Assembly (NCBI GenBank): GCA_965214705.1
Contig: OZ243972.1
Span: forward strand, 3,648,001 to 3,712,000
Direction of reading: 5' to 3'
Length of the DNA: 64,000 nucleotides
Source: Alphaproteobacteria bacterium
GTDB lineage: Bacteria > Pseudomonadota > Alphaproteobacteria > UBA828
The position numbers and the translations under genes were made by a program. The notes under the pieces were generated by a model. That model was given only the letters and a program-made list of their open reading frames with translations, did no database searches and had not been told where the DNA came from. Positions 1 to 32,486 of this stretch are shown piece after piece; position 1 is the stretch's first letter; the number at the start of each line of letters is the position of its first letter.

Positions 1-993
1 GGGGGCTCGCAGGTCGCGCTGAAGGCGCAGGGCTGCGCCATTGGCGATCCGGTGGTCTTCATGGGCACCGGGCCGCTGCTCTACCTCGTGGCCTACCAGT
101 ACGCCCACGCGGGCGCGCGCGTGGCGGCGGTGCTGGACACGTCCCACTTGTCCCAGGCGATCCCGGTGTTTTCCGGCCTGCTCCGGGGCGGGCGGACCTT
201 CGCCAAGGGCCTCTGGTACATGACCTGGCCGCGCACGGCGGGGATCCCGGTGCGGCGCGGCATCACGCCGGTGGCGGCCGAGGGCGAGGCTGCGCTGGAG
301 GCCGTGCGCTATCGGGACCGGCGCGGACGCGAGCGCCGCATCGCCTGCACCGGGCTCGGCATCGGCTACAGCGTGAAGTCCGAGGTGCAGCTGGCGGAGC
401 TTGCCGGCTGCGAGATGGCCTTCGACCCGCTGGCGCAGCAATGGCTGCCGCAGGCGGACGAGGACGGCCGGGCGCTCTCGGGCTCGGTCTATCTCGCGGG
501 CGACGGTGCCGGCGTGGCCGGTGCCGATGCGGCGGAGGTACGCGGCCGGCTCGCGGCGCTCGCCCTGCTCGCCGACACGGGCATCGCGTCGGACCGCGCG
601 CTGCAGGCGAGGTTGCGGGGGAAGCTCCGGCGCATCATGCGCTTCCGCGACGCGCTGGAGCGGGCCATGCCGGCGCCCTTCCACATGGCGCGGACGCTGC
701 CGGATGAGACCGTGATCTGCCGCTGCGAGGCGATCACCGCCGGCGAAATTCGCCAGGGCCGGGCGCTGGATCCGGCCGAAATGAACCGGGCCAAGGCCTT
801 CACGCGTGTGGGCATGGGGCGCTGCCAGGGCCGGGTGTGCGGTCCCGCCGCCGCCCAGATCCTCGCTGCCGCGCGCGGCCGCAAGGTCGAGGAGGTGGGC
901 CGCCTGCGCGGCCAGGCGCCAGTGAAACCGCTTACGATCCGCGCGGGCGCCGAAGCCGCGGTCGAGGATCGCGCACGGGCGGCCTCCATATGA
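1..993 (+). CDS. FAD/NAD(P)-binding oxidoreductase with C-terminal BFD-like [2Fe-2S] domain (HcnB/OoxA-like), 5'-truncated by window edge
   Basis: Frame open from base 1; YLAGDGAG, ICRCE and GMGRCQGRVC motifs, ending R-x-P-V-K-P; ATGA overlap with next gene. Confidence 0.85.
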   Translation, partial: GGSQVALKAQGCAIGDPVVFMGTGPLLYLVAYQYAHAGARVAAVLDTSHLSQAIPVFSGLLRGGRTFAKGLWYMTWPRTAGIPVRRGITPVAAEGEAALEAVRYRDRRGRERRIACTGLGIGYSVKSEVQLAELAGCEMAFDPLAQQWLPQADEDGRALSGSVYLAGDGAGVAGADAAEVRGRLAALALLADTGIASDRALQARLRGKLRRIMRFRDALERAMPAPFHMARTLPDETVICRCEAITAGEIRQGRALDPAEMNRAKAFTRVGMGRCQGRVCGPAAAQILAAARGRKVEEVGRLRGQAPVKPLTIRAGAEAAVEDRARAASI

Positions 994-31158: not shown

Positions 31159-31629
31159 ATGGACCACGAAGGCTACATGCGGCAAGCGATCGCGCTCTGC
31201 GAAGAGAAGATGGCGGCGGGCGAAGGCGGCTACTGCGCGACGCTCATCGTGCGGGACGACGAGGTGATCGGCGAGGGCTGGAACAACGTGGCCGAGAACT
31301 GCGATGCCACCGGCCATTGCGAGATCAACGCCATCCGCGATGCGGGCAAGCGCACCCGCAATTGGGACCTCTCCGGTTCGACCCTCTACACCACCTGGGA
31401 GCCCTGCGTCATGTGCGCGGCGGCGATCTGGTGGGCGCGGATCGACCGGGTGTTCTACGGCAATCTGCTCTCCCACGCGTCCGACCTCGGCATCGACCTC
31501 GCCGGACTGGACAAAGAAGTCGCGACGCCGAGCGAGCAGCGGGACCGGCCCTACCGGCGCCTGCTGGGCGATGAGACCTACGCCATGTTCAGGGCGTGGT
31601 GGGACAGCGGGGACCGCACCACCATCTAA
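31159..31629 (+). CDS. Zn-dependent nucleoside/base deaminase (CDA/TadA fold)
   Basis: HCE...LYTTWEPCVMC; GGAGG RBS. Confidence 0.87.
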   Translation: MDHEGYMRQAIALCEEKMAAGEGGYCATLIVRDDEVIGEGWNNVAENCDATGHCEINAIRDAGKRTRNWDLSGSTLYTTWEPCVMCAAAIWWARIDRVFYGNLLSHASDLGIDLAGLDKEVATPSEQRDRPYRRLLGDETYAMFRAWWDSGDRTTI

Positions 31630-31635
31630 TGGTGC

Positions 31636-31664
31636 TTGCACGGCTGAGACGGGCGCGCCATATA
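31636..31664 (+). promoter_or_regulatory. Putative alphaproteobacterial sigma70 promoter
   Basis: (C)TTGCAC-N17-CATATA. Confidence 0.6.
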
Positions 31665-31698
31665 CGAGGCGTCGTCAACAACGAAAGGAGGTGATCCA

Positions 31699-31773
31699 GT
31701 GTCAGACTGTCCTAAACCGCGATCGGCGGTCATCGCGAGCTGGGTCTCCCCCTGCGATGGGGCCCACGGCTGA
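31699..31773 (+). CDS. Putative 24-aa peptide MSDCPKPRSAVIASWVSPCDGAHG
   Basis: GTG directly after the extended SD; TGA at 31771-31773. Confidence 0.5.
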   Translation: MSDCPKPRSAVIASWVSPCDGAHG

Positions 31774-31809
31774 CGGTGACGACGCGATCTGCGGATCGCG
31801 GATTGACGG

Positions 31810-31840
31810 GGAAGGGCCGCCCCAGCCGGGCGGCCCTTCC
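31810..31840 (+). terminator. 13-bp GC hairpin, terminator-like
   Basis: GGAAGGGCCGCCC-cagcc-GGGCGGCCCTTCC; weak U-tract. Confidence 0.65.
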
Positions 31841-31854
31841 AACGTTCCGAGCCC

Positions 31855-32394
31855 ATGACTGACGAGACTCCGGAGGGCGCCACACTCGGCGTCATCCCCG
31901 CCGGATTCTGGCGGCGGGTCGCGGCGTGGGTCATTGACACGATCATCGTGCTGGTGGGCGTCTACCTCGTCGGCTCGTTCCTGTGGCCCGACCTGGTGGA
32001 GACCACGACGCGCGTCTCGGAGAGCGATGGCGCGCGGCTGGAAGTGGTGAGCTACGCGCTCTCCTGGCTCGGCTCCGTGGTCTTCGGCATCGCGCTCGGT
32101 GTCTACACGGCGCTGCAGGAGAGCAGCCGGGCCCAGGCGACCGTCGGCAAGCGCATGCTGGGCCTTCGGGTGATGGGGCTCGACGGTGGGCGAATCTCGC
32201 TGCTCACGGCGATCCTTCGCTGCTGGCCGCTCTGGCTCCCCGGCCTCATCAGCATGGTCGAGGGCCTGAATTACGTCGTCGGATTTGCGGCCATCGCCGC
32301 CTGCATCGCGGTCGCCTTCACCCGCCGCAAGCAGGGCCTGCACGACATGCTGGCGCGCTGTTTGGTGGTGCGCCGGCCGCCCCGTGTCATATAG
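31855..32394 (+). CDS. RDD family membrane protein
   Basis: AGFWRRVAAWVID, ATVGKRMLGLRV, QGLHDMLA. Confidence 0.9.
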   Translation: MTDETPEGATLGVIPAGFWRRVAAWVIDTIIVLVGVYLVGSFLWPDLVETTTRVSESDGARLEVVSYALSWLGSVVFGIALGVYTALQESSRAQATVGKRMLGLRVMGLDGGRISLLTAILRCWPLWLPGLISMVEGLNYVVGFAAIAACIAVAFTRRKQGLHDMLARCLVVRRPPRVI

Positions 32395-32486
32395 GGGCGC
32401 GCGGAGGGCACTCGCACCCGCCGGGCTTTTGCGCCATGATCGCGCGCCGGTGAGCGGAGGAGTCGCCGGGGGCAGGGGGCGAAGAC

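What the first reader, a model, noticed from the sequence alone, without database searches (positions are those of the whole stretch)
31630..31855. Self-contained micro-locus with 17-nt complementarity to the 16S rRNA 3' end, a 24-aa ORF and switchable hairpins
Seen: promoter TTGCAC-N17-CATATA (31636-31664); GAAAGGAGGTGATCCAG (31683-31699); GTG-started ORF MSDCPKPRSAVIASWVSPCDGAHG with two Cys; hairpins at 31718-31737 and 31783-31800; CCGCGATC (31717-31724) can alternatively pair with GATCGCGG (31794-31801); 13-bp hairpin at 31810-31840 just before the RDD gene, which has no obvious SD. Known: the 17-mer is the reverse complement of the conserved 16S tail (CUGGAUCACCUCCUUUC), far longer than a normal 4-8 nt SD and reaching into helix 45. 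Inference: (a) a 30S-binding or sequestering RNA, or a factor in 16S 3'-end maturation; (b) a strongly initiated peptide; or (c) a leader attenuator for the RDD and aminotransferase genes. I recall similar extended-SD small ORFs in other Alphaproteobacteria but cannot name a family.
Basis: partly seen in the sequence, partly recalled or inferred. Interest (0 to 1): 0.78.

Follow-up and report, generated by a model that had tools for sequence, protein, structure and literature searches.

The report
Ribosome-clamping small mRNA, already described
This is a real, conserved small gene whose RNA grips the ribosome's small subunit through an unusually long match to the end of 16S rRNA, but the family was already published twice (as the rre small mRNAs and as the sRNA CC2171) and its role in the cell is still unknown.

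Summary
GAAAGGAGGTGATCCAG (31683-31699) is the exact reverse complement of this genome's own 16S 3' end. It occurs nowhere else in the 7.9-Mb assembly except at the 16S gene. It ends in the G of a GTG-started 24-codon frame.

It is not new. The locus matches Rfam RF01867 "CC2171" over the full model (65.6 bits, below the cut-off of 75; E 3.4e-13). It has every sequence hallmark of the rre small mRNAs of Hahn et al. (PMC5711450). Their rreB binds 30S and is translated only weakly, and its decay depends on the start codon; its function is unknown. Bradyrhizobiaceae-type loci (14-codon frame beside a tRNA) also hit RF01867. No held paper names both families.

- The peptides show no purifying selection (pooled pN/pS 0.97, against 0.34 for the neighbouring RDD gene).
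- A frame of 14-33 codons is nevertheless kept (97% of 182 loci).
- An internal imperfect copy of the 16S tail (31740-31752) can pair with the SD. One pair of this helix covaries across the family.
- A look-alike family exists in Burkholderiales.

The leader-attenuator reading is not supported.

The parts
31636..31664 (+). Predicted promoter: TTGCAC (31636-31641), 17 nt, CATATA (31659-31664)
   Evidence: Read. The two hexamers are invariant or nearly so across the genus while the spacer varies. The consensus scan did not detect it. No transcript start was mapped.
31670..31682 (+). Predicted 5' leader (start near 31670 is inferred). CGUCGUCA (31670-31677) can pair with UGACGACG (31777-31784). 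The C/A-rich CAACAAC lies at 31676-31682.
   Evidence: MFE fold. The helix pairs in 88% of cells in the genus, and one pair changes U-A to G-C in 2 sequences. A CAAC-type motif precedes the SD in most family members.
31683..31699 (+). Extended Shine-Dalgarno: a 17-nt exact complement of the 16S rRNA 3' tail
   Evidence: The computed duplex with the tail is -31.0 kcal/mol. The first 15 nt are kept across Alphaproteobacteria.
31699..31773 (+). 24-codon frame, GTG to TGA, encoding MSDCPKPRSAVIASWVSPCDGAHG
   Evidence: The frame is kept in the genus at 24 codons. There is no third-position excess (0.088/0.209/0.126, against 0.185/0.148/0.317 for the RDD gene). pN/pS is 0.95.
31740..31752 (+). Internal imperfect copy of the 16S tail (CUGGGUCUCCCCC), able to pair with 31687-31699. 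Its 5' part can instead form hairpin 31741-31748/31759-31766.
   Evidence: 98.9% of cells pair across 16 genus sequences. One pair of this helix covaries across the family. The alternative hairpin appears in the RNAalifold consensus.
31783..31800 (+). Hairpin CGCGAUC-UGCG-GAUCGCG
   Evidence: 99.1% of cells pair in the genus, with two one-sided wobble changes. It is part of the RNAalifold consensus.
31810..31840 (+). 13-bp G+C-rich hairpin, the predicted 3' end of the RNA; no U tract follows
   Evidence: 99.5% of cells pair in the genus. It aligns to the terminal hairpin of RF01867. The terminator scan did not call it.
31676..31837 (+). Extent of the match to Rfam RF01867 (CC2171)
   Evidence: 65.6 bits, gathering score 75, E 3.4e-13, model positions 1-159 of 159.

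Best explanation
The locus is a stand-alone small gene of the rre / CC2171 family.

Predicted from sequence: an RNA of about 175 nt runs from its own promoter to the hairpin at 31810-31840. About 12 nt from its 5' end it carries a 17-nt exact complement of the free 3' tail of this organism's 16S rRNA. That stretch ends in the G of a GTG start codon of a 24-codon frame.

Inferred: in the free RNA most of this stretch can pair with an imperfect internal copy of the 16S tail (31740-31752, inside the frame), which tends to leave the 5' end of the stretch (GAAAG in the model) single-stranded. A 30S subunit docks on that toehold and displaces the internal copy. The result is a clamp of up to 17 bp that uses the whole single-stranded tail.

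Shown only for the homologue rreB of Bradyrhizobium japonicum: the clamp holds the RNA on 30S subunits but makes translation weak, and the start codon shortens the RNA's half-life.

What selection keeps across the family is the clamp, the start codon, a frame of 14-33 codons and RNA pairings. It does not keep the amino-acid sequence. My reading is that the frame serves to let a captured ribosome run off and open the RNA. The physiological role is unknown.
For: Identity:
- Full-length RF01867 match.
- Conserved in 17 of 20 genus genomes, and in 22 of 151 genomes sampled one per alphaproteobacterial family (the window's own genome included).
- The pattern AAGGAGGTGATCCNDTG is present once per genome in 57 of 114 same-class genomes. 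It occurs in 2 of 286 other-class genomes, and both of those sites precede ordinary long genes.
- Bradyrhizobiaceae-type loci with a 14-codon frame beside a tRNA, like the published rreB (which lies beside tRNA-Gly), hit RF01867 at 41.7-49.4 bits.

Experiments on rreB (PMC5711450):
- A 165-nt RNA is seen on Northern blots and co-sediments with 30S.
- The 17-nt version is ribosome-bound; the 14-nt and 8-nt versions are mostly soluble.
- Reporter fusions are translated weakly.
- Changing GUG to UAG raises the half-life from 10 to 37 min.

Pairing with 16S is what is selected:
- The six loci with a variant SD among the Infernal-found homologues carry A>G (four loci), C>U (one) and A>U (one). Five of the six keep a wobble pair.
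- The 16S gene stays GATCC in the two variant genomes where its 3' end was found.

The peptide is not selected:
- There is no third-position excess in any of 6 clades.
- pN/pS is 0.73-2.12, pooled 0.97. The same letters read out of frame give 0.93 and 0.80. The adjacent RDD gene gives 0.34.
- The second codon is Ser in 166 of 177 loci, mostly TCT (121). TCT accounts for only 2 of 62 Ser codons in five neighbouring genes.

The frame is selected:
- 97% of 182 loci have 14-33 codons, against 24-26% in the other two frames.
- All 40 Infernal-found loci have 18-32 codons.

Internal copy of the 16S tail:
- It pairs in 98.9% of cells in the genus.
- A fold forced to contain it costs only 0.9 kcal/mol (-88.4 against -89.3).
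- The untranslated base between GAUCC and the start codon covaries with the base 5' of GG[AG]U[CU] near +42. 68 of 101 RNAs form a Watson-Crick pair there, against a shuffled mean of 37.4; 0 of 10000 shuffles reach 68. A-U, G-C, U-A and C-G are all seen.
- Hahn et al. predicted the same kind of sequestration for rreB.
Against: - No transcript, 5' end or 30S binding is shown for this organism. The metatranscriptome contigs laid on the region prove nothing.
- The Rfam score is below the curated cut-off (65.6 against 75).
- In the thermodynamic ensemble the SD:internal-copy helix has a probability of only 0.03. There is no covariation for it within the genus, where its columns hardly vary.
- Across the family the SD's best internal partner is on average only 2.7 kcal/mol better than a reversed-sequence control. 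The Sphingomonadales clade shows no consistent partner.
- RNA constraints on synonymous sites inflate pN/pS. The clades were defined by peptide prefix and length. Most loci were found with a pattern that requires a start codon.
- Relatedness inflates the shuffle test.
- Overproduction of rreB RNA or peptide gave no growth phenotype, so no function is demonstrated.
Confidence: 0.8

Rival explanations
1. The selected product is the 24-residue peptide. The unusual ribosome-binding site only sets its very low or conditional level of synthesis.
For: A start codon (A/G/T-TG, never CTG) follows the SD in all 41 Infernal-found loci. The frame length is kept. RreB-EGFP fusions are made in B. japonicum, and Hahn et al. 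describe the peptides as conserved within clades.
Against: Pooled pN/pS is 0.97, no different from out-of-frame readings, while the neighbouring RDD gene gives 0.34. The best-kept residues are explained by RNA pairing. W-V/I is UGG-GUC/AUC, part of the copy of the 16S tail, and it becomes R-I (AGG-AUC) exactly where the untranslated spacer base is U. The first codons are invariant at all three positions in the MSHC clade, where they pair with the pre-terminator sequence. Peptides of different orders share nothing beyond 'MS'. Synthetic RreB and RreR were unstructured, and overproduction gave no phenotype.
Confidence: 0.2
2. It is a cis-acting leader. Translation of the short frame switches hairpins and so controls read-through into the RDD and aminotransferase genes.
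For: In the genus all 17 loci keep the same downstream open frames, including the frame that is the RDD gene. The hairpin has no U tract and ends 14 nt before the RDD start codon, which lacks an SD. One 173-nt metatranscriptome contig from a relative spans 31719-31880; this is weak, because contigs do not show single transcripts.
Against: No flanking-gene cluster is shared between clades, and Hahn et al. state that context is not conserved outside Bradyrhizobiaceae. In other clades the hairpin is followed by a U-rich tail and the RNA stands alone. The stop codon (31771-31773) is 37 nt upstream of the terminator stem, out of a ribosome's reach. The proposed alternative pairing has no compensatory change.
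Confidence: 0.07
3. The RNA acts on the ribosome rather than the reverse. It would be a sponge for 30S subunits, or a guide or protector of the 16S 3' tail during late 30S maturation or quality control.
For: The only segment conserved throughout the family is the complement of the entire free 16S tail, so 16S is the only plausible base-pairing target. rreB sits on 30S rather than 70S fractions. Variants in the SD keep the pairing.
Against: There is one copy per genome. Hahn et al. judge ribosomes to be far more abundant than the RNA, and saw no growth effect at 20-fold overproduction. Conservation of a start codon and of frame length is not needed for a pure sponge. There are no data on 16S ends.
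Confidence: 0.1
4. It is a chance match or a relic of an rRNA operon on the opposite strand.
For: The minus strand carries 17 letters identical to the 16S 3' end.
Against: Identity stops at both ends of the 17-mer. About 9e-4 such matches are expected per genome. The element, with its start codon and hairpins, is conserved across the class.
Confidence: 0.01

Closest known systems
rre small mRNAs (rreB of Bradyrhizobiaceae, rreR of Rhodobacterales; Hahn et al., RNA Biol 2016/17, PMC5711450; Results and Discussion read)
   Same: [quoted passage not shown] A very short frame. A stand-alone RNA of about 165-175 nt with its own promoter and terminal hairpin. The SD is partly sequestered, with a free 5' toehold. 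One copy per genome. Gene context is conserved only within a clade.
   Different: The frame here has 24 codons (rreB 14, rreR 18), and the peptide is unrelated to RreB and RreR. The terminal hairpin lacks a U tract. Nothing has been tested in this organism. The paper treats the peptides as conserved small proteins, whereas the counts here show no selection on them.
Rfam RF01867 CC2171, a Caulobacter sRNA. Landt et al. 2008 is not held; it is known here only through citing passages. A Northern blot in Methylorubrum extorquens is reported in bioRxiv 10.1101/2022.01.24.477521 (passages read).
   Same: Full-length alignment to the model. The model consensus itself begins ...GAAAGGAGGUGAUCCAGUG and ends in the same G+C-rich hairpin.
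   Different: The score of 65.6 is below the gathering score of 75, so the locus would not be annotated automatically. Rfam and the preprint treat the RNA as non-coding and do not mention the SD or the frame. No held paper links CC2171 with rre.
SD-sequestering hairpins of RNA thermometers and riboswitch expression platforms (recalled general knowledge, not searched)
   Same: An internal anti-SD-like stretch pairs with the ribosome-binding site and competes with 16S rRNA.
   Different: Here the internal stretch copies 10 of 13 letters of the 16S tail, the SD is 17 nt long, no ligand or temperature signal is known, and no downstream gene is controlled.
Ribosome-dependent leader peptides such as trpL of Sinorhizobium meliloti (seen as abstracts in the search listing)
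   Same: A short frame whose translation, not its product, may matter; the small RNA is released as a separate molecule.
   Different: There are no regulatory codons, no terminator/antiterminator alternative supported by covariation, and no conserved downstream operon.
Extended SD motifs in Staphylococcus aureus (PMC13009471; search listing and start of the abstract only)
   Same: SD-anti-SD pairing longer than the textbook 4-6 nt.
   Different: That is a genome-wide property of ordinary genes that favours initiation. Here a single gene per genome pairs with the entire tail, and for rreB this pairing inhibits translation.

Membership tests
rre small mRNAs (Hahn et al. 2016) | [quoted passage not shown] | tested here: met
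   17 of 17 nt against the 16S end found in the same assembly.
rre small mRNAs (Hahn et al. 2016) | The complementary stretch ends in the first base of the start codon of a very short frame | tested here: met
   G31699 is both the last paired base and the first base of GTG. The frame has 24 codons.
rre small mRNAs (Hahn et al. 2016) | A stand-alone transcript of about 165 nt with its own promoter and terminator | tested here: inconclusive
   The promoter-like hexamers are conserved in the genus and there is a 13-bp terminal hairpin. However, the consensus scans found nothing, and the RNA contigs cannot show transcript ends.
rre small mRNAs (Hahn et al. 2016) | Predominant association of the RNA with 30S subunits, dependent on the 5' extension of the SD | not testable with these tools
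   Shown for rreB only.
rre small mRNAs (Hahn et al. 2016) | Conserved within its clade; gene context not conserved between clades | tested here: met
   Present in 17 of 20 genus genomes. Flanking-gene clusters are clade-specific.
Rfam RF01867 CC2171 | Score at or above the curated gathering score (75 bits) | tested here: not met
   65.6 bits.
Rfam RF01867 CC2171 | Significant full-length alignment to the covariance model (sequence plus structure) | tested here: met
   E 3.4e-13 over model positions 1-159 of 159. It is the only significant match in the genome. Relatives score up to 90.5 bits.
Ribosome-dependent transcription attenuator (leader peptide) | Mutually exclusive terminator and antiterminator helices supported by covariation, with the stop or regulatory codons placed so that a ribosome chooses between them | tested here: not met
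   The alternative pairing has no compensatory change. The stop codon lies 37 nt before the terminator stem.
Ribosome-dependent transcription attenuator (leader peptide) | A conserved downstream operon | tested here: not met
   Downstream genes are shared only within clades.
Small-protein gene under purifying selection | Excess of synonymous over non-synonymous change, with the third codon position the most variable | tested here: not met
   Pooled pN/pS is 0.97 over 6 clades, against 0.34 for the RDD control. Position 3 is never the most variable.

The most novel reading that the evidence does not exclude
The rre/CC2171 genes are not small-protein genes in any functional sense. They are self-gated RNA clamps for the free 3' tail of 16S rRNA. 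The RNA carries its own imperfect copy of that tail as a lid, a toehold for the real tail, and a neutral frame of 14-33 codons. The frame's only job is to let the captured ribosome leave and, in doing so, open the RNA and trigger its decay. The cell would use this to report or test free, mature 30S subunits. The same design has arisen or spread in Burkholderiales.
Probability: 0.35. Interest if true: 0.6.

Novelty: new member of a known kind. Interest (0 to 1): 0.33.

Why it matters
For the scan, the finding is real but already in print, so it should not be counted as a discovery.

For the field, three points may be useful.
- Two literatures describe one family under two names: the non-coding sRNA CC2171 and the small mRNA rre. 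No paper in the held library links them.
- The peptides that motivated the name 'small protein' evolve as if neutral, while the frame, the 16S clamp and an internal copy of the 16S tail are kept. This shifts the question from 'what does the peptide do' to 'what does the RNA-30S encounter do'.
- The design also occurs in Burkholderiales, outside the class in which it was described.

An RNA that pairs with the whole free tail of 16S rRNA in about half of the sampled alphaproteobacterial genomes (57 of 114), and still has no known function ten years after its description, remains an open problem in translation biology.

Tried and rejected
- Rfam at gathering thresholds found nothing in the window. 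Only the E-value mode showed RF01867.
- The consensus promoter and terminator scans found nothing.
- Landt et al. 2008 (PMC7540941) is not held, so what Caulobacter CC2171 does is known to me only from citing passages.
- Schrader et al. 2014 say that two previously predicted ncRNAs are translated, but name them only in Dataset S1, which I could not see. Figure S1 of Hahn et al. was also not visible.
- The Caulobacter sRNA-library paper gave nothing on this RNA. A 2025 review of dual-function RNAs does not mention rreB.

Expression:
- 14 metatranscriptome runs hold 5-12% of the sampled words of 31300-32400.
- Four of them were laid. They gave short contigs from relatives over the deaminase gene, the small gene and the RDD gene.
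- One 167-nt contig (31627-31793, 2 differences) starts upstream of the predicted promoter.
- Contigs cannot show starts, ends or strand, so this gives no verdict on transcription.

Structure:
- MAFFT plus RNAalifold on 35 diverse sequences could not align the middle of the RNA and returned only two helices.
- Shuffle z-scores for pairing of codons 2-6 with downstream sequence were not significant (median z -0.16).
- A positional rank test then showed such a helix next to the terminal hairpin in the MSHC, MSHG and MSS clades (79%, 86% and 63% of RNAs within the top 5%). It did not show in the window's genus (11%), the rreB clade (0 of 6) or the rreR-like clade (0 of 8).
- I built no covariance model of my own.

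Other:
- The deaminase control alignment failed (one usable column per codon position) and is not used.
- The chance or rRNA-relic reading is rejected (see rivals).
- ORFs that overlap the locus on either strand have no Pfam family.
Full report
THE OBSERVATION. Reading 31300-32200 confirms every element at the stated coordinates:
- TTGCAC (31636-31641), 17 nt, CATATA (31659-31664).
- GAAAGGAGGTGATCCAG (31683-31699).
- A GTG-started frame of 24 codons (31699-31773).
- The two short hairpins, the two mutually complementary octamers, and a 13-bp hairpin (31810-31840) 14 nt before an RDD-family gene.

The neighbouring genes are an arginase-family gene, a cytidine/deoxycytidylate-type deaminase ending at 31629, the RDD gene and a class IV aminotransferase. 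The assembly's own 16S gene ends ...GGCTGGATCACCTCCTTTCT, so the 17-mer is its exact complement. GGAGGTGATCC occurs 21 times in the genome, mostly inside coding sequence. The full GAAAGGAGGTGATCC occurs only here and at the 16S end.

WHAT IT IS. At curated thresholds Rfam finds nothing in the window. An E-value scan aligns 31676-31837 to the whole model of RF01867, 'CC2171', at 65.6 bits (cut-off 75) and E 3.4e-13. The model consensus itself begins with the same SD and GUG. The RNA is found in several samples:
- 17 of 20 other genomes of the genus. The three without it are 62%, 100% and 100% complete.
- 22 of 151 genomes sampled one per alphaproteobacterial family, under stricter filters.

Nearly all are from Alphaproteobacteria: Sphingomonadales, Rhodobacterales, Hyphomicrobiales, Acetobacteraceae, Azospirillum and others.

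In a sample of the phylum, AAGGAGGTGATCCNDTG is present exactly once in 57 of 114 same-class genomes and in 2 of 286 genomes of other classes. The reversed control pattern gave 0 in the listed rows. The two outside hits precede ordinary long genes.

THE LITERATURE. [quoted passage not shown] I read its Results and Discussion.
- rreB of B. japonicum is a 165-nt RNA with a 17-nt complement to the 16S end that includes the G of GTG, and a 14-codon frame.
- It is found in the ribosomal pellet and co-sediments with 30S.
- Shortening the complement from 17 to 14 nt releases it.
- GUG>UAG lengthens the half-life from 10 to 37 min.
- Overproduction has no growth effect.
- The authors found analogues in Caulobacterales, Rhizobiales, Rhodobacterales (rreR, 18 codons) and Rhodospirillales, and state that the function is elusive.

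The 14-codon loci next to a tRNA in my set (L065, L127, L143, L163) match the published rreB arrangement (which lies beside tRNA-Gly). They hit RF01867 at 41.7-49.4 bits, so rre and CC2171 are one family.

The rre paper does not mention Rfam. The Methylorubrum preprint that validated CC2171 by Northern blot does not mention an SD or rreB. No held paper contains both names. Only three held papers cite the rre paper, and all are trpL/peTrpL studies.

WHAT SELECTION ACTS ON. I collected 182 unique loci. Most were found with a pattern that demands a start codon, so start-codon counts are biased. The 41 Infernal-found loci are not biased in this way, and all have A/G/T-TG 1-2 nt after the SD.

177 of the 182 have a frame of 35 codons or fewer. 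The peptides are order-specific and share only 'MS'.

In six clades with ungapped frames, diversity at codon positions 1/2/3 never peaks at position 3. For the window's genus it is 0.088/0.209/0.126. The RDD gene of the same 16 loci gives 0.185/0.148/0.317.

Counting changes along minimum spanning trees gives pN/pS of 0.73-2.12, pooled 0.97. The same letters read out of frame give 0.93 and 0.80. The RDD gene gives 0.34.

Yet the frame is kept. 97% of loci have 14-33 codons in frame, against 24-26% in the other two frames. The second codon is Ser in 166 of 177 loci and is usually TCT, a codon used for 2 of 62 serines in five neighbouring genes. So the letters, the start, the stop and the distance between them are constrained, but the residues are not.

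RNA ARCHITECTURE. The window RNA folds well (-89.7 kcal/mol, z -3.97). Within the genus (16 sequences, 93% mean column identity) the results were:
- Hairpin 31783-31800 and the terminal hairpin are pairable in 99% of cells.
- Hairpin 31718-31737 is pairable in 81%.
- A helix between the 5' leader and the sequence just after the stop codon shows one compensatory pair.

More informative is a stretch inside the frame, CUGGGUCUCCCCC (31740-31752). It repeats 10 of the 13 letters of the 16S tail CUGGAUCACCUCC and can pair with 31687-31699 in 11 of 13 positions.
- Forcing its seven-pair core (31693-31699 with 31740-31746) costs 0.9 kcal/mol, although its ensemble probability is only 0.03.
- It is pairable in 98.9% of genus cells.
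- The MSHC clade has CUGGAUC(N3-4)GCCUCC at the same place.
- The rreB-type loci have a partner at +31..44, and the rreR-like loci have one downstream of the frame.

The untranslated base N between GAUCC and the start codon covaries with the base 5' of GG[AG]U[CU] near +42. Watson-Crick pairs by N are A-U 42 of 62, G-C 19 of 28, U-A 6 of 8 and C-G 1 of 3. The total is 68 of 101, against a shuffled mean of 37.4, and 0 of 10000 shuffles reach it. After collapsing similar peptides the figure is 42 of 70, against 24.3.

This explains the 'conserved' Trp. UGG turns into AGG exactly where N is U.

Family-wide, the computed probability of being unpaired is 0.60 for GAAAG and 0.31 for GGAGG. This fits the toehold idea that Hahn et al. 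proposed for rreB. For the window's own RNA the contrast is weak (0.45 against 0.33).

In three clades codons 2-6 also pair with the sequence abutting the terminal hairpin. This helix is weak in the window's genus.

Variants of the 15-nt core among the Infernal-found loci keep pairing with 16S in five of six cases. The 16S sequence is unchanged in the two variant genomes where its 3' end was found.

MECHANISM. I read the locus as a self-gated clamp for the 16S tail.
- Toehold binding, displacement of the internal copy and a 17-bp duplex (-31 kcal/mol): inferred.
- 30S retention, weak translation and start-codon-dependent decay: shown for rreB only.
- The frame acting as an exit ramp: inferred from the selection pattern.

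The physiological role is unknown. A sponge role is unlikely given the published overexpression result.

The attenuator reading fails for three reasons. Flanking genes are shared only within clades. The stop codon is 37 nt from the terminator stem. No switch is supported by covariation. For this genus, read-through into the RDD gene cannot be excluded, because the hairpin has no U tract.

BEYOND THE CLASS. Three Burkholderiales contigs carry the same 5' design. In a sample of their order, 32 of 301 genomes hold the pattern (reversed control: 1). Of the 25 loci fetched, 16 are small genes with these features:
- a TACACT-type -10;
- CAACUUU or CAACCAC before GAAAGGAGGUGAUCC-N-GUG (AUG in one);
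- a frame of 22-27 codons (M-R/S-..-QG-TGR...TGS...RS);
- in nearly all, a U-tailed terminator.

Again there is only a weak third-position excess (0.314/0.330/0.373). RF01867 scores them poorly (32.1 and 25.0 bits; no hit for L110 at E 0.01 or better), and no other Rfam family covers them.

VERDICT. The finding is a correct observation of a member of a family that is already published under two names. It would escape automatic Rfam annotation, and its peptide differs from RreB and RreR, so I file it as a new member of a known kind. Interest is modest. What keeps it above the floor is that the family's function is unknown, and that the counts here point to the RNA-30S encounter, not the peptide, as the selected function.

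Noticed in passing
It has a TACACT-type -10, CAACUUU or CAACCAC, GAAAGGAGGUGAUCC-N-GUG (AUG in one), a frame of 22-27 codons (M[RS]..QG.TGR..TGS..RS) and, in nearly all, a U-tailed terminator. The frame holds GGAUCA, complementary to the UGAUCC of its own SD. The pattern occurs in 32 of 301 sampled genomes of the order, and 16 of the 25 fetched loci are of this type. No Rfam family other than weak RF01867 hits covers them. The rre paper does not mention this group.
   Followed up: partly
This is an ordinary gene using a 13-nt SD.
   Followed up: no
L116 (Azospirillum MAG), L156, and also L088, L154: Behind the full GAAAGGAGGTGATCC-N-start there are frames of 48-60 codons that begin like signal peptides (MSHGA.PVVAA.FGLA.LLTAGIA...). 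RF01867 did not hit L116 at E 0.01 or better. Hahn et al. note that the Azospirillum rre gene is plasmid-borne and starts with ATG.
   Followed up: no
L061 (Gemmatimonadetes MAG), L090 (Phycisphaerales MAG): rre-like loci on contigs binned outside Pseudomonadota (RF01867 at 35.6 and 30.5 bits). Possible causes are mis-binning, horizontal transfer or independent origin.
   Followed up: no
L010, L030, L033 (genomes G022, G070, G042): Three family members from three different families carry GGUGGUCC instead of GGUGAUCC. The 16S genes of G070 and G042 keep GATCC, so the change turns an A-U pair into a G-U pair. No 16S end was found in G022, which is 77% complete.
   Followed up: yes
L110 5641-6021 (-) and L092 6610-7006 (-): A cspA thermoregulator (RF01766, 89.4 and 73.7 bits) lies 1-5 kb from the rre-like gene on two Burkholderiales contigs. 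This may be coincidence.
   Followed up: no
G000 (whole assembly): The assembly has three contigs of 4.17, 3.04 and 0.71 Mb at 66.7-66.9% G+C. Estimated contamination is 8.72%.
   Followed up: no
window 31627-31793 and 31719-31880: Metatranscriptome contigs from coral and sponge samples, 90-99% identical to the window, cover the small gene together with its promoter region or with the start of the RDD gene. Relatives of this organism occur in those samples, but the contigs say nothing about transcript ends.
   Followed up: partly
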